Positions 7,124-41,154 of a stretch of DNA of 64,000 nt are shown in pieces. Each line of letters opens with the position of its first letter. Within the stretch, counting starts at the first letter, position 1. Position numbers and translations under genes: made by a program. The notes under the pieces were generated by a model, which had not been told where the DNA came from, did not search any database, and saw only the letters and a program-made list of their open reading frames with translations. The DNA is from Oscillospiraceae bacterium (GTDB lineage: Bacteria > Bacillota > Clostridia > Oscillospirales > Ruminococcaceae): assembly GCA_045121595.1 (NCBI GenBank), contig JBGVGI010000003.1, forward strand, positions 63,610-127,609, read 5' to 3'.

Positions 7124-9199
7124 TTAAGCTTTTGCTTTCTGAGAAATGATTTTCTCAGCGATAGATTTGGGAACTTCTACGTAATGACTGGGTTCCATAG
7201 TGTACTGACCACGGCCCTGAGTCTTAGAACGAAGGTCTGTAGCGTAACCGAACATTTCGGAAAGCGGAACGAAGGATCTGATTTCCTGAGCGCCGGCTCT
7301 TGCTTCCATACCCTGAATCTGACCACGGCGGGAGTTAAGGTCACCGATAACGTCACCCATGTAATCTTCGGGAACGATAACAGTAACTTTCATGATGGGC
7401 TCCATAATAACGGAGTTTGCTTTTCTCAAAGCTTCTTTCAAAGCCATAGAACCTGCAATCTTGAACGCCATTTCAGAGGAGTCAACTTCATGGTAAGAAC
7501 CGTCGTAGAGTTCTACTTTGATATCAACTACGGGGTAGCCTGCGAGTACACCAGCCTGCATAGCGCCCTGGATACCCTGGTCAACAGCAGGAATGTATTC
7601 TTTAGGAATGCTACCACCAACGATTTTGTTAACAAACTCGTAACCTTTACCGGATTCGTTGGGTTCAACACGGATCTTAACGTGACCGTACTGACCTTTA
7701 CCACCAGACTGACGAGCGTATTTGTGGTCAACGTCAGCGTTACCGAGAATTGTTTCTCTGTAAGCAACCTGAGGTTTACCAACGTTAGCTTCTACTTTGA
7801 ATTCACGGAGCAAACGGTCAACGATGATTTCAAGGTGAAGCTCACCCATACCAGCGATGATTGTCTGACCTGTTTCTTCATCTGTATAAGTCTTGAAAGT
7901 GGGGTCTTCTTCAGCGAGTTTGGAAAGAGCGATACCCATCTTTTCCTGACCTGCTTTAGTTTTGGGCTCGATAGCAACACGGATAACGGGTTCCGGGAAT
8001 TCCATAGACTCGAGGATAACTTCGTGTTTAGGATCACAGAGTGTGTCACCTGTTGTTGTTAGTTTGAGACCAACTGCTGCAGCGATATCACCTGCGTAGC
8101 AAGTTTCGATATCCTGACGGTGGTTAGCGTGCATCATAAGGATACGGCCCATTCTTTCGGATTTACCTTTTACAGAGTTGTAAACGGTAGCACCTGCGTC
8201 AACAGTACCGGAATATACACGGAAGAAGCAGAGTTTACCAACGAAGGGGTCAGTAGCGATCTTGAATGCGAGAGCTGCAAAAGGCTCTTCATCGGAAGAA
8301 CGTCTTTCTGTTTCTTCACCATCGGGTGTAACACCCTTGATAGCAGCAATATCTGTAGGTGCGGGCATATAGTCAACAACAGCATCGAGAAGTTTCTGAA
8401 CACCTTTGTTTCTATAAGCAGTACCGCAGCATACGGGAACGATAGTATTTGCAATAGTTTCTTTACGGATAGCAGCTTTGAGCTCGTCTATTGTAATTTC
8501 TTCTTCTTCCAAATACTTCATCATGAGATCTTCGTCGTTTGTAGCAACAGCTTCAACGAGTTCAGATCTGTACTGTTCAGCTTTTTCAAGCATATCAGCG
8601 GGAACATCTGTTACGGAAATGTCGTTACCCAAGTCATCGTTGTAGATGTAGGCTTTCATTTCAAGCAAGTCGATAAGGCCCTTGAAATCGTCTTCAGCGC
8701 CGATGGGGAGCTGAATCGGAACAGCGTTACATTTAAGACGGTCTTTCATCATGTTAACTACGTTGTAGAAGTCAGCACCCATGATGTCCATCTTGTTAAC
8801 GAATGCCATTCTGGGAACCTTATAGTTGTTTGCCTGATGCCATACTGTTTCAGACTGAGGTTCTACACCACCCTTAGCGCAGAAAACAGTTACAGAACCG
8901 TCAAGTACGCGGAGTGAACGTTCAACTTCTACTGTGAAGTCAACGTGGCCGGGGGTGTCGATGATGTTAACTCTATGGCCTTTCCAAAATGCTGTTGTAG
9001 CAGCAGAAGTAATTGTAATACCTCTTTCCTGCTCCTGAACCATCCAGTCCATTGTAGCAGTACCTTCGTGAGTATCACCGATTTTATGTGTTTTACCGGT
9101 GTAGTAAAGGATACGCTCAGTGGTAGTGGTTTTACCAGCATCGATATGAGCCATAATACCAATATTACGAGTCATTTCCAGAGATACGTCTCTTGGCAT
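7124..9199 (-). CDS. fusA: Elongation factor G
   Basis: [21 protein letters not shown], 691 aa. Confidence 0.99.
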
Positions 9200-34154: not shown

Positions 34155-34397
34155 ATGAACATTGGAGACGCAACGAGAAGCCGTATCAAAGAGCTTTGCA
34201 AGGAGAAAAGCATCACGGTAAACAAGCTTTCCACACTTTGTGGAATCACCCAGTCCACCTTAAACAACATCGTCGGTGGCAGAAACAACAGCACCACCAT
34301 TTCCACTATCAAAAAGATATGCGACGGACTGGACATCACTATTCAGGAATTTTTTGAATCGGACTGTTTTGACGATTTAAGTCAGGAAATAAGTTAA
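34155..34397 (+). CDS. XRE/Cro-C1 helix-turn-helix regulator
   Basis: RIKELCKEKSITVNKLSTLCGITQSTLNNI...TIKKICDGL. Confidence 0.85.
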   Translation: MNIGDATRSRIKELCKEKSITVNKLSTLCGITQSTLNNIVGGRNNSTTISTIKKICDGLDITIQEFFESDCFDDLSQEIS

Positions 34398-34421
34398 GCA
34401 GAGGAAAACCCTCTGCTTTTT

Positions 34422-35388: not shown

Positions 35389-36240
35389 ATGGAATTTTTA
35401 CAGCTTAAATACTTTTTTGAAAGCTCCAAAAACGAAAACTTCGCAAAAACGGCAGAAAAGTTTATGGTGCCTCCGTCATCTGTTTCCACCGCGATAAAAC
35501 GCCTTGAAAATGAGCTTGGTTGTGAGCTTTTCGACCGCAAGTCCAACAGTATTCTTTTGAATGAAAACGGAAAAAGGCTTCAAAAATCAATCCATATTAT
35601 CTTCAACGAACTGGATCAGGTTATCTTCGACCTTGCTACAGAAGAAAAAGACGATACCGAAATAAAGTTTCTCGTCCGCTCGGCAAGAGCTGTAATCATA
35701 GATAAAATTATAGATTTTAACAAAAAGCTCCCCACGGTACAGCTTTACGTTTCATCCGACCTTAACGACACGAATTACAACGATTACGATATAATCGTGG
35801 ATGAAGAAAATGAAATTTATTCTGATTTTGAAAAGTTTGAATTGTGTACTTTCCGTATCGGCATCCGTGCGACTTTGGATAATCCCCTTTGCAACAAGCC
35901 GTTAAAACTCAGCCAACTTGCAAATCAGCATTTTATTTCCCGAGGCGATGATGCAAGACTTTTTAAAATACTTACAAAAGCATGTAAAAAAGCGGGATTT
36001 ACACCAAAAGTTATCCTCAAAACAAACGACACTCTGTGTTACCGTCAGTGTATAGACGAAGGCGTCGGACTTGTACCGGCATTCAGGTACCCCAACGCAA
36101 ACACCAAAACTGCTAAAACTACCTTTTTGCAGATTTCGGATTTCGATGAACGCCAGACGGTTTACGTTTACTATAAAAAACACGAAAAAAGTAAAAACAT
36201 CGAAAACTTCATAAAATTCTTAAAAGACAGCATAACGTAA
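35389..36240 (+). CDS. LysR-family transcriptional regulator
   Basis: QLKYF...FAKTAEKF.VPPSSVSTAIKRLENELGCELFDR. Confidence 0.9.
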   Translation: MEFLQLKYFFESSKNENFAKTAEKFMVPPSSVSTAIKRLENELGCELFDRKSNSILLNENGKRLQKSIHIIFNELDQVIFDLATEEKDDTEIKFLVRSARAVIIDKIIDFNKKLPTVQLYVSSDLNDTNYNDYDIIVDEENEIYSDFEKFELCTFRIGIRATLDNPLCNKPLKLSQLANQHFISRGDDARLFKILTKACKKAGFTPKVILKTNDTLCYRQCIDEGVGLVPAFRYPNANTKTAKTTFLQISDFDERQTVYVYYKKHEKSKNIENFIKFLKDSIT

Positions 36241-36452
36241 AGAGCAGAGGACAACCCTCTGCTCTTTTAGTTATTTCATCGGATTATTTTCGATATACCG
36301 CCACGTTTCGAGATAATCATTTTCATCACGGATAATATGGTCGTAATACGATTTCTGCCACAATTTTTTATTAAATGGTTTCAATACATTTTCTTTCACA
36401 CATTTTATATATTCATTTGTGGTCATGGTTTTAAACCATTGCACCATATCCG

Positions 36453-36479
36453 GTAGGGAACGACCTGTGTGTCGTTCCG
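36453..36479 (+). repeat. GTAG-type REP inside the RAYT ORF
   Basis: GTAG-GGAACGAC-CTGTGT-GTCGTTCC-G. Confidence 0.9.
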
Positions 36480-36603
36480 CATCAATGAACAATATAAAAT
36501 GAATATGGTCAGGCATAATAACGTATTTTTCTATCGTTATACCGAATTTGTTTTCCAGTTTGGATAACCATTTTTCTATTATTATGTTTTGCGTAATATC
36601 TGA

Positions 36604-36630
36604 CGGAACGACACACAGGTCGTTCCCTAC
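36604..36630 (-). repeat. GTAG-type REP inside the RAYT ORF (inverted copy)
   Basis: Exact reverse complement of 36453-36479. Confidence 0.9.
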
Positions 36631-36756
36631 AATTGATTTTTCAAACAAGCATTGTCTTTCATAGGTGCACACCGTCACAAAATACAATCCATTTTGGGAA
36701 TAATCATAATCTTTTAACCTGTTGGCTTTACGCTTTGGGTATTCCATAAAACCCAA

Positions 36757-40942: not shown

Positions 40943-41101
40943 CGGAACGACACACAGGTCGTTCCCTACAAGCCTTCTCCAGTGGGAGAAGGGGGACCGC
41001 TTGCGGTGGATGAGGTGTAACACTCAACCACACAGGTCGTTCATAATCGGAACGACACACAGGTCGTTCATAGTCGGAACGACACACAGGTCGTTCCCTA
41101 C
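40943..41101 (-). repeat. REP cluster (BIME-like): 2 complete + 2 partial copies of the RAYT REP plus a different palindrome
   Basis: CGGAACGACACACAGGTCGTTCCCTAC at 40943 and 41075, partial copies at 41030 and 41048, and CCTTCTCC-AGTG-GGAGAAGG at about 40973. Confidence 0.9.
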
Positions 41102-41154
41102 TTTAAAAAAATGTGCTGCCGCTTTCGTGACAGCACATCTTAGAATTCTTACAA

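What the first reader, a model, noticed from the sequence alone, without database searches (positions are those of the whole stretch)
36271..36747. RAYT transposase carries a REPIN-like doublet of its own REP inside the ORF, bracketing the HUH motif
Seen: two perfect 27-bp inverted copies of GTAG-GGAACGAC-CTGTGT-GTCGTTCC-G (36453-36479 and 36604-36630) are translated in frame as VGNDLCVVP and AERHTGRSL. The 124 nt between them encodes MPDHIH. No REPs flank the gene in the usual way, and the protein stops at NNPMK, possibly a few residues short. Established: RAYTs are HUH Y1 enzymes that nick GTAG-REP hairpins. Inference: the gene is a substrate of its own enzyme (self-cleavage, inversion or excision of the catalytic segment, or autoregulation), and REP DNA has been exapted as protein sequence.
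Basis: partly seen in the sequence, partly recalled or inferred. Interest (0 to 1): 0.65.

Follow-up and report, generated by a model that had tools for sequence, protein, structure and literature searches.

The report
RAYT gene carrying its own REPs
A small REP-associated tyrosine transposase gene of a gut Clostridia bacterium carries two in-frame copies of the DNA hairpin repeat such enzymes act on; the trait is real and kept at the DNA level, but was already reported in 2018 for this enzyme subclass, and I found no sign that it flips or cuts out the catalytic segment.

Summary
Window 36453-36479 and 36604-36630 are perfect 27-nt inverted copies of a GTAG-headed hairpin (REP). They lie in frame inside a 158-161 aa RAYT/TnpA-REP gene (36271-36747, minus strand), on either side of the HUH codons. 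The same REP has 11 extragenic copies in this genome.

It is not a one-off insertion. Three paralogs in the same genome and most homologs in gut Oscillospirales carry their own, different REP at the same two loops. Relatives in many phyla carry REPs in the loop after HUH. Stems vary only by compensatory changes, and synonymous sites inside them are frozen while other synonymous sites are saturated. The post-HUH REP ends exactly 11 nt before the QWFK codons in 76 of 85 genes.

The basic phenomenon is published. Quentin et al. 2018 describe in-frame REPs inside tnpA-REP genes as the hallmark of subclass 2.4 (RAYT group 4). This locus adds a clade variant, with one REP before HUH, and evidence for nucleotide-level constraint.

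Self-inversion or excision is not supported. None of 191 homologous loci is inverted or deleted, and either event would destroy the frame. This copy also lacks the conserved C-terminal Trp/Asp tail.

The parts
36271..36747 (-). RAYT / TnpA-REP gene (158 aa from the ATG; 161 aa from an upstream TTG at 36756). It fits subclass 2.4 and has an unusually short C-terminus.
   Evidence: Pfam Y1_Tnp 1.8e-11. NCBIfam REP_Tyr_transpos 81.2 bits against a cutoff of 80. AF2 model pLDDT 86.6 and pTM 0.82. Foldseek best hit 4ER8, TM 0.66. dN/dS 0.12-0.20 against 7 orthologs. The tail is 2 aa against a median of 11.
36604..36630 (-). REP 1: GTAG-hairpin on the coding strand, before HUH ('U>'). It encodes VGNDLCVVP in the beta1-alphaB loop.
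   Evidence: Model residues 40-48 fall in loop 29-51, where mean pLDDT for the block is 69. Homologs in gut Oscillospirales carry a REP at the same place, 110-177 nt (mostly 120-165) upstream of the first His codon.
36453..36479 (+). REP 2: GTAG-hairpin on the template (+) strand, after HUH ('D<'). On the coding strand it reads ...CCCTAC and encodes AERHTGRSLP in the beta3-alphaC loop.
   Evidence: Model residues 90-99 fall in loop 89-97. The CTAC end lies 11 nt before the Gln codon of QWFK, as in 76 of 85 family ORFs.
36499..36507 (-). HUH motif codons (CAT ATT CAT = H-I-H) within MPDHIH, on strand beta3
   Evidence: H81 and H83 are invariant in alignment A1.
36295..36297 (-). Catalytic tyrosine codon (TAT) of the YIENNP motif, helix alphaD
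   Evidence: Y151, N155 and P156 are invariant in A1. The motif aligns with Y115-N119 of E. coli TnpA-REP.
36239..36267 (+). Terminator-like hairpin shared with the convergent LysR gene. It begins a few bases after the RAYT stop codon (36271-36273).
   Evidence: (repeat I2).
40943..41102 (+). Extragenic array of the same REP (two full copies and two partial ones) plus an unrelated palindrome, in an intergenic region

Best explanation
This is a TnpA-REP/RAYT gene of subclass 2.4 (RAYT group 4). In this subclass the enzyme's own REP hairpins sit inside the coding sequence, in frame, in surface loops. In this gene one REP lies in the beta1-alphaB loop, with GTAG on the coding strand. The other lies in the beta3(HUH)-alphaC loop, with GTAG on the template strand, so the pair brackets the HUH codons. 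This bracketing layout is the form I found in gut Oscillospirales. Relatives in other phyla carry the pair, or a single REP, in the post-HUH loop only.

Shown: the hairpins are cognate, because each RAYT lineage in this genome carries the REP family that is also dispersed in the genome. They are old, because the post-HUH REP has a fixed position and frame across phyla. They are kept at the nucleotide level, because synonymous sites in the stems are frozen or change in compensating pairs. The conserved unit is each individual hairpin, not the 27-bp pairing between the two arms.

Inferred: they persist because they are working DNA sites for the encoded enzyme. When the gene is single-stranded during replication or transcription, each strand exposes one GTAG-hairpin that the RAYT can bind. 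This would give the gene a permanent, co-inherited pair of REP copies that can reseed the dispersed population. It could also allow feedback on the gene's own expression. The pair is not an inversion or excision switch.

This particular copy lacks the conserved C-terminal Trp/Asp tail and may be a weakened, 3'-truncated copy.
For: Identity. Cognate and dispersed: REP-A has 13 copies (2 intragenic), REP-B has 7 (4 inside the two C27 paralogs), and REP-C has 3 (2 inside the C98 paralog, 1 at window 47671). Family trait: 11 of 22 scorable ORFs in same-family genomes show the U>|D< layout. So do 18 of 31 scorable ORFs from Clostridia-labelled reference-genome loci. D>D<, D> or D< layouts occur in Chloroflexota, Bacteroidota, Proteobacteria, Melainabacteria and others. 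Nucleotide-level constraint: third-base entropy at 4-fold sites is 1.36-1.99 bits outside the arms (n=17) and 0-1.0 bits inside them (n=10), Mann-Whitney p=1e-5. The two variable stem sites split 10:9 in compensating pairs (CGA/GGT against CGG/GGC), and GAC/GTC changes to GGC/GCC. This holds although dS is 0.9-2.1. Anchoring: CTAC ends 11 nt before the Gln codon of QWFK in 76 of 85 ORFs. Loops. The frame of GTAG varies (VG.. against CRG..), so the peptide is not what is conserved. Prior description of in-frame REPs in subclass 2.4 genes: PMC6006769. E. coli TnpA-REP binds the GTAG-hairpin on ssDNA through alphaB and alphaC: PMC3479197.
Against: No experiment or read data here shows that the enzyme binds or cuts the internal copies, and no data bear on expression. 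Some homologs have lost REP 1 or let it decay (P0059, P0061, P0025, P0036, P0038, P0080), and about 15-20% of relatives show no internal REP, so the hairpins are dispensable for at least some lineages. Frozen synonymous sites could also arise without any function in the gene, through repeated homogenisation from extragenic copies. Quentin et al. modelled the insertion as peripheral, away from the DNA-binding and catalytic sites, and expected little impact. The window copy lacks the conserved W/D tail, so it may not be active itself.
Confidence: 0.6

Rival explanations
1. Neutral passengers. REPs were inserted into two permissive surface loops and are simply tolerated. Their apparent conservation comes from repeated homogenisation or replacement by the genome's REP population, through gene conversion or RAYT-mediated exchange, not from any function within the gene. 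This is close to the view of Quentin et al. 2018.
For: Both peptides fall in lower-confidence loops. Extra REPs stack in loop 1 in some homologs (P0053, P0084, P0089; Faecousia U>U<). REP 1 has been lost or has decayed in several. The authors of PMC6006769 place the insertion away from the active and DNA-binding sites. In the window gene the internal arms equal the most abundant extragenic variant.
Against: The post-HUH REP has one fixed position and frame in 76 of 85 genes from many phyla, which random insertion does not predict. In families B and C of this genome the intragenic copies are half or more of all copies, so there is little extragenic population to convert from. In L124 the internal stems (GGC) differ from the adjacent extragenic copies (GAC and ATGGC).
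Confidence: 0.25
2. One reading: the inverted pair makes the gene a substrate for its own product, producing inversion, excision or self-cleavage of the HUH segment as an on/off switch or self-limiting device.
For: The arms are a perfect 27-nt inverted repeat. The long stem is thermodynamically strong: -51.7 kcal/mol as RNA and -32.1 as DNA, against -25.7 and -15.4 for two local hairpins. RAYTs cleave ssDNA next to GTAG-REPs (PMC3479197).
Against: None of 191 homologous loci has the middle segment on the opposite strand or precisely removed. Inversion gives 5 in-frame stops and excision of 178 nt shifts the frame, so there is no alternative product. In L118, L122, L020, L141 and L011 the two arms differ by compensated stem changes, so arm-to-arm complementarity is not conserved. 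Arm concordance within genes is only marginal (p about 0.05-0.07). In most phyla both REPs lie after HUH and bracket no catalytic residue.
Confidence: 0.05
3. RNA-level element: the hairpins act in the mRNA, independent of RAYT binding, to stall ribosomes, block exonucleases or recruit RNases, and so keep transposase expression low.
For: The predicted RNA structure of the region is very stable, with MFE -74.1 kcal/mol. REPs are reported to affect mRNA stability, termination and translation (background of PMC6006769). The gene has no promoter of its own and follows the GH127 gene by 9 nt.
Against: No Rfam family reaches threshold. A generic RNA hairpin would not need the GTAG head, yet its synonymous sites are frozen too (GTA 16/16, GGG 16/17). 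The family-wide anchored REP has its GTAG on the template strand, which is not in the mRNA.
Confidence: 0.08
4. Peptide-level function: the REP-encoded residues are what selection keeps, for example as DNA-contacting loops next to helices alphaB and alphaC.
For: The second peptide sits immediately before alphaC, the helix that enters the REP minor groove in 4ER8. It is near-invariant (ERHxGRSL) in the 120 closest homologs.
Against: The same DNA element is read in different frames in paralogs and relatives (VGNDLCVVP, CRGELCSP, VGQGLCSCR; ERHTGRSL, GRTQFAPT, GEHxGSPL), with no shared chemistry. Synonymous sites are frozen, which peptide selection does not require.
Confidence: 0.02

Closest known systems
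TnpA-REP subclass 2.4 of Quentin, Siguier, Chandler and Fichant 2018 (BMC Genomics 19:475, PMC6006769), which equals RAYT group 4 of Bertels et al. 2017
   Same: Motifs xH[IFV]H / WQ / YIxNNP. No conserved C-terminal extension. GTAG REPs with G-C pairs at the foot of the stem. REPs inserted in frame within the tnpA-REP gene in the variable region between beta3 and alphaC. About 1.5 copies per genome, scattered across phyla.
   Different: [quoted passage not shown] Here one REP lies before HUH, in the beta1-alphaB loop, a layout found only in gut Clostridia (mostly Oscillospirales). The stems show nucleotide-level constraint and a fixed anchor point. The window gene has DHIH rather than NHIH, four RAYT genes share the genome, and no REP flanks this copy.
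E. coli TnpA-REP (RayT/YafM) and its REPtron; structure 4ER8 (Messing et al. 2012, PMC3479197; Ton-Hoang et al. 2012, PMC3333891)
   Same: Same fold (TM 0.66, RMSD 2.5 A), with HUH and Tyr motifs and GTAG-headed hairpin substrates. The E. coli enzyme is a monomer that binds one REP through alphaB and alphaC.
   Different: In E. coli the REPs/BIMEs flank the gene and none lies inside it. E. coli also has a 45-aa autoinhibitory C-terminal tail and a His (H123) where this family has Trp, and where the window protein has its stop codon. Sequence identity is about 21%.
REPINs (Bertels and Rainey 2011, PMC3116915)
   Same: Two REPs in inverted orientation, heads outward, able to fold into one long hairpin.
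   Different: A REPIN is a short non-coding unit that is dispersed as a doublet. Here the 178-nt unit is unique in the genome, its spacer encodes alphaB-beta2-beta3(HUH), and the extragenic copies are singlets or direct arrays.
Intragenic REPs in housekeeping genes (Di Nocera et al. 2013, PMC3733652)
   Same: GTAG REPs and REP dimers translated in frame as 20-30 extra residues in tolerant regions.
   Different: Those insertions sit at different sites in unrelated genes and are not conserved in position. Here the host gene is the REP's own enzyme and the site is fixed family-wide.

Membership tests
RAYT / TnpA-REP (HUH Y1 enzymes associated with REPs) | HUH motif on a beta-strand | tested here: met
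   H-I-H at 36499-36507. H81 and H83 are invariant in A1. The motif lies on strand E81-88 of the model.
RAYT / TnpA-REP (HUH Y1 enzymes associated with REPs) | Single catalytic Tyr in the C-terminal helix (Y..NP motif) | tested here: met
   YIENNP, with the Tyr codon at 36295-36297. Y151, N155 and P156 are invariant.
RAYT / TnpA-REP (HUH Y1 enzymes associated with REPs) | Profile match above the curated cutoff, and the TnpA-REP fold | tested here: met
   NF047646 scores 81.2 bits against a cutoff of 80, only just above it. The PDB profile hit to 4ER8 has E=1.9e-9. Foldseek gives 4ER8 at TM 0.66.
RAYT / TnpA-REP (HUH Y1 enzymes associated with REPs) | A cognate family of GTAG-headed palindromes dispersed in the same genome | tested here: met
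   13 copies of GTAGGGAACGACCTGYGTGTCGTTCC, of which 11 are extragenic and intergenic.
RAYT / TnpA-REP (HUH Y1 enzymes associated with REPs) | REPs flanking the gene (REPtron layout) | tested here: not met
   No REP lies within about 4 kb on either side of the window gene other than the two internal ones. Many orthologs do have REPs 1-70 nt after the stop codon.
RAYT / TnpA-REP (HUH Y1 enzymes associated with REPs) | Binding and cleavage of single-stranded REP DNA | not testable with these tools
   This needs a biochemical assay. The window copy also lacks the conserved Trp at NP+3 and Asp at NP+6.
TnpA-REP subclass 2.4 (Quentin et al. 2018) | Motif signature NH[IFV]H, WQ, YIxNNP | tested here: met
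   The window has DHIH, LWQ and YIENNP. Close homologs alternate between DHIH and NHIH. The first residue, D instead of N, is the only departure.
TnpA-REP subclass 2.4 (Quentin et al. 2018) | No conserved C-terminal extension after the core | tested here: met
   Homolog tails are 5-26 aa and the window tail is 2 aa. The paper lists 2.4 among the subclasses without an extension.
TnpA-REP subclass 2.4 (Quentin et al. 2018) | In-frame REP sequences within the gene, in the variable region between beta3 and alphaC | tested here: met
   REP 2 at 36453-36479 lies in loop 89-97 between E81-88 and H98-118.
TnpA-REP subclass 2.4 (Quentin et al. 2018) | Assignment by the authors' own subclass HMM or MCL clustering | not testable with these tools
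REPIN (mobile REP doublet) | Two REPs in inverted orientation forming one hairpin | tested here: met
   27/27 complementary arms. The long stem is -51.7 kcal/mol as RNA.
REPIN (mobile REP doublet) | The doublet, including its spacer, is the dispersed unit, with many copies | tested here: not met
   The spacer, which is the HUH segment, occurs only in the RAYT genes. Extragenic REP-A copies are singlets or same-orientation arrays.
Invertible or excisable DNA switch | Both orientations, or the empty site, observed among copies or reads | tested here: not met
   0 of 191 assembled homologous loci are inverted or deleted.
Invertible or excisable DNA switch | The alternative state gives a defined product or a regulated OFF state conserved across relatives | tested here: not met
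   Inversion gives 5 stops and excision gives a frameshift. Spacer length varies from 103 to 254 nt, with no frame conservation.

The most novel reading that the evidence does not exclude
The embedded REPs may be functional cis-sites rather than tolerated insertions. The RAYT gene would carry, protected by its own reading frame, a permanent pair of substrate hairpins that its product binds on single-stranded DNA. That would make the gene a self-contained seed able to found or replenish a REP population after vertical decay or horizontal transfer. It could also provide built-in feedback that limits the enzyme. The Oscillospirales layout, with the catalytic HUH segment between the two sites, would then tie loss of the sites to loss of the enzyme.
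Probability: 0.3. Interest if true: 0.6.

Novelty: new member of a known kind. Interest (0 to 1): 0.3.

Why it matters
How REP populations and their single-copy RAYT genes stay matched and persist for millions of years is still an open question in this field. A subclass in which the substrate hairpins are written into the enzyme's own gene is a natural system in which to test this. The 2018 description treated the insertions as peripheral and probably harmless. The results here argue that the hairpins are under constraint as DNA: frozen and covarying synonymous sites, a fixed anchor 11 nt before the alphaC codons across phyla, and one REP family per RAYT lineage within a single genome. That makes a functional role directly testable by synonymous recoding and ssDNA binding assays. 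For annotation, it explains the recurrent peptides VGNDLCVVP / ERHTGRSL / VGADLRVCP / GEHxGSPL in 'transposase' proteins. It also warns that repeat-masking or REP-finding tools will hit inside these genes.

Tried and rejected
1. One-off REP insertion into this gene. Rejected: three paralogs and dozens of homologs carry different REPs at the same loops.

2. Chance palindrome. Rejected by shuffles.

3. Pseudogene. dN/dS of 0.12-0.20 shows long-term purifying selection, but the missing W/D tail leaves recent 3' truncation open.

4. Inversion or excision variants among assemblies. None in 191 loci. The 11 flagged loci were contig ends or divergent middles of normal length.

5. Concerted evolution of the two arms within a gene. 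Only marginal (p=0.054 and 0.074, n=12), so I do not claim it.

6. Known RNA family. Only far sub-threshold miRNA-precursor hits, caused by the long hairpin.

7. Conserved synteny as a sign of domestication. No other locus shares the GH127, LysR or SGNH neighbours, which is uninformative at this divergence.

8. Novelty. My first literature searches and term look-ups missed the prior description. It was found only after earlier scan notes pointed to it, and I then verified it in the paper text.

10. Metagenome and genome collection scans were each used once, so junction-specific pattern searches for inverted forms in public contigs could not be run.

Full report
**Observation**

The repeat finder gives arms 36453-36479 and 36604-36630, 27 nt long, 100% complementary and 124 nt apart. 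Each arm is itself a GTAG head, an 8-bp stem (GGAACGAC/GTCGTTCC), a 6-nt loop and a trailing G.

Both arms lie in the minus-strand ORF 36271-36756, whose likely ATG is at 36747. They are read in frame as VGNDLCVVP and AERHTGRSLP. The HUH codons (CAT ATT CAT) are at 36499-36507, between the arms, and the tyrosine codon of YIENNP is at 36295-36297.

The hairpin core occurs five times in the window against 0.17 expected from shuffles. It has about 14 sites in the 2.23-Mb, 104-contig genome. No REP flanks the gene; the nearest are in an intergenic array at 40943-41102.

**Identity of the gene**

- Pfam Y1_Tnp matches at 1.8e-11.
- NCBIfam REP_Tyr_transpos scores 81.2 bits against a cutoff of 80.
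- A profile of 69 homologs hits PDB 4ER8, E. coli TnpA-REP bound to a REP.
- An AlphaFold2 model (pLDDT 86.6, pTM 0.82) has the elements beta1 20-28, alphaB 52-68, beta2 71-77, beta3/HUH 81-88, alphaC 98-118, beta4 135-139 and alphaD 142-157.
- The model's best structural match is 4ER8, with TM 0.66 and RMSD 2.5 A.
- dN/dS against seven orthologs is 0.12-0.20, with dS of 0.9-2.1, so the lineage has been under purifying selection.

**Not a one-off**

The genome holds three more RAYT paralogs at about 48% identity.

- The two on contig C27 each carry a perfect 25-27-nt inverted pair of a different REP (TGTAGGGGCGAACTGTGTTCGCCCG) at the homologous two positions. It is read as CRGELCSP and GRTQFAPT, in a different frame from the window gene.
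- The paralog on C98 carries a third, less perfect pair.

Genome-wide counts are:

| REP family | Total copies | Intragenic | Where the intragenic copies lie |
|---|---|---|---|
| REP-A | 13 | 2 | the window gene |
| REP-B | 7 | 4 | the two C27 paralogs |
| REP-C | 3 | 2 | the C98 paralog (the third copy is at window 47671-47696) |

So each RAYT lineage carries inside itself the REP family that is dispersed in the genome.

**Distribution**

I mapped all GTAG-headed hairpins relative to the first His codon of HUH. U means upstream of HUH and D means downstream. The symbol > means GTAG is on the coding strand, and < means GTAG is on the template strand.

- In 151 genomes of the same family, 20 have a homolog.
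- Of the 22 scorable ORFs from those genomes, 11 have the U>|D< layout that brackets HUH. The stems differ between genes (GGAACGAC, GGGCGAAC, GCAAGGGC, GGAGGGGC and others).
- Among 80 loci from named reference genomes, U>|D< layouts occur only in gut Clostridia: Fumia, Acutalibacteraceae, Faecousia, Oscillospiraceae and Ruminococcus.
- Chloroflexota, Bacteroidota, Proteobacteria, Melainabacteria, Thermodesulfobacteriota and others carry a forward and an inverted REP, or a single REP, in the loop after HUH.
- 80 environmental metagenome loci show the same pattern.
- Matching extragenic REPs often flank these genes. An example is an array of eight alternating REPs upstream of the Comamonas denitrificans gene, L158.

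**DNA-level constraint**

I built a codon alignment of 19 genes of the VGNDLCVVP subfamily and measured third-base entropy at 4-fold sites of conserved residues.

- Outside the arms it is 1.36-1.99 bits (n=17), which is saturated.
- Inside the arms it is 0-1.0 bits (n=10), Mann-Whitney p=1e-5.
- Head and stem sites are frozen: GTA 16/16, GGG 16/17, GTT 18/18, CGT 18/18, TCC 19/19.
- The two variable stem sites change as a compensating pair (CGA/GGT in 10 genes, CGG/GGC in 9).
- Non-synonymous stem changes are also compensated (GAC/GTC to GGC/GCC, giving VGNGLCAVP).
- Free variation sits in the hairpin loop (CTGTGT, CTGCGT, CTATGT).

Because the frame of GTAG differs between genes, the peptide cannot be the conserved object.

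The post-HUH REP is anchored. Its CTAC end lies exactly 11 nt before the Gln codon of the alphaC motif QWFK in 76 of 85 ORFs, the window gene included.

**What is conserved is each hairpin, not the arm-to-arm pairing**

In L118, L122, L020, L141 and L011 the two arms differ by compensated stem pairs. Each arm is a perfect hairpin, but the long inverted repeat is imperfect. A shuffle test for extra similarity between the arms of one gene is marginal (p=0.054 and 0.074, n=12). The perfect 27/27 match in the window is therefore one end of a range, not the rule.

**Position in the protein**

REP 1 (model residues 40-48) lies in the beta1-alphaB loop. There it replaces a short beta-hairpin (xDGEMxL) found in distant relatives. 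REP 2 (residues 90-99) is the beta3-alphaC loop. These are the only internal regions of reduced confidence in the model.

In 4ER8 the REP stem is held mainly by alphaB and alphaC, with alphaC in the minor groove (PMC3479197). The two loops therefore lead into the two DNA-binding helices. The peptides share no chemistry across the family, however.

- Inverting the 124-nt spacer gives five in-frame stops. Excising the 178-nt unit shifts the frame.
- Among 191 homologous loci, none has the HUH segment on the opposite strand or precisely deleted.
- The 178-nt unit is not dispersed. The spacer exists only in RAYT genes, and extragenic copies are intergenic singlets or same-orientation arrays.

**State of this particular copy**

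In 114 close homologs the tail after Y..NP is 5-26 residues, with a median of 11. Here it is 2. Across the family, NP+3 is Trp in 141 of 154 loci and NP+6 is Asp in 114 of 149. NP+3 aligns with H123 of E. coli TnpA-REP, which is a metal ligand in 4ER8.

The window protein stops at NP+2, a few bases before a terminator-like hairpin (36239-36267) shared with the convergent LysR gene. The copy is probably 3'-truncated and may be impaired.

It has no promoter-like site of its own. It starts 9 nt after the stop of a GH127-family gene.

**Prior knowledge**

My first searches of the RAYT literature missed it. Earlier scan notes then pointed to Quentin et al. 2018. The paper states that:

[quoted passage not shown] - the variable insertion lies between beta3 and alphaC;
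- the subclass has the motifs NH[IFV]H / WQ / YIxNNP, lacks a C-terminal extension, and equals RAYT group 4;
- the region is modelled as peripheral, with probably little impact.

The window protein (DHIH, WQ, YIENNP, no extension) fits that subclass. The general phenomenon is therefore known.

This analysis adds four things:

- the Oscillospirales layout, with one REP before HUH;
- the synonymous-site and covariation evidence;
- the fixed anchor point of the post-HUH REP;
- the one-REP-family-per-RAYT-lineage pattern within a single genome.

**Verdict**

The thing is a member of a published kind, with a clade-specific layout.

The most likely reading is that the embedded REPs are cognate hairpins kept as DNA sites for the encoded enzyme, either as resident seed copies or as feedback sites. 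That functional step is inferred, not shown. A neutral-passenger model with recurrent homogenisation is the main rival.

Noticed in passing
window 40943-41102: Intergenic array between an IscU-like gene and gap. It holds a full REP-A, then an unrelated GC-rich palindrome (CCTTCTCCAGTGGGAGAAGG...GACCGCTTGCGGTGGATGAGG), then three 27-nt-period REP-A units (partial, one lacking CTAC, full), all in one orientation. Similar mixed repeat clusters occur on contigs C50 and C92.
   Followed up: partly
window 47671-47696: A single extragenic copy of GTAGGGGCAGGGCTCTGCTCTGCCCG. It is identical to the post-HUH internal REP of the RAYT paralog on contig C98 and is the only extragenic copy of that family in the assembly.
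   Followed up: yes
genome contig C27:3083-3535 (+) and 7189-7644 (-): Two RAYT-B paralogs lie 3.6 kb apart in inverted orientation, about 85% identical over 408 nt, each with the same perfect internal REP pair. I did not examine what lies between them; it could be a composite-like unit or a local duplication.
   Followed up: no
window 34397-34417 and 36243-36263: Similar terminator-like hairpins (AAGCAGAGG..CCTCTGCTT and AAAGAGCAGAGG..CCTCTGCTCTTT) bracket the SGNH/DUF4886-LysR gene pair. The second abuts the RAYT stop codon, so insertion of this 1.8-kb cassette may be what removed the RAYT's C-terminal tail and any downstream REP.
   Followed up: partly
P0053, P0084, P0089, P0102, P0115, P0120; L122, L126, L128, L129, L146: Some homologs carry extra REPs stacked in loop 1. 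These are a tandem second VGND-type copy, or an inverted REP of a second type (GGCACGRC, read as GTAHRPCP). The loop therefore acts as a REP landing site next to an existing REP.
   Followed up: partly
L013, L019, L030, L043, L151, L169, L185: Several homologs contain a single in-frame stop codon (TGA, TAG or TAA) in otherwise conserved sequence, so pseudogenisation of these RAYTs is common.
   Followed up: no
L038-L115 and L147-L195 (many phyla): Nearly the same REP sequences (GTAGGGGCAGACCTGCGTGTCTGCCC forward and GTAGGGGCGAACCTGTGTGTTCGCCC inverted, a Y/Z-like pair) recur inside and around subclass 2.4 genes. The hosts include Chloroflexota, Bacteroidota, Proteobacteria, Melainabacteria and Planctomycetota, which is an unusually wide conservation for a REP sequence.
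   Followed up: partly
L158 (Comamonas denitrificans), 57-516 nt upstream of the RAYT ORF: A BIME-like array of eight strictly alternating inverted and forward REPs (GCGAAC type and GCAGAC type), spaced about 60-75 nt apart, directly upstream of a RAYT that also has the pair inside.
   Followed up: no
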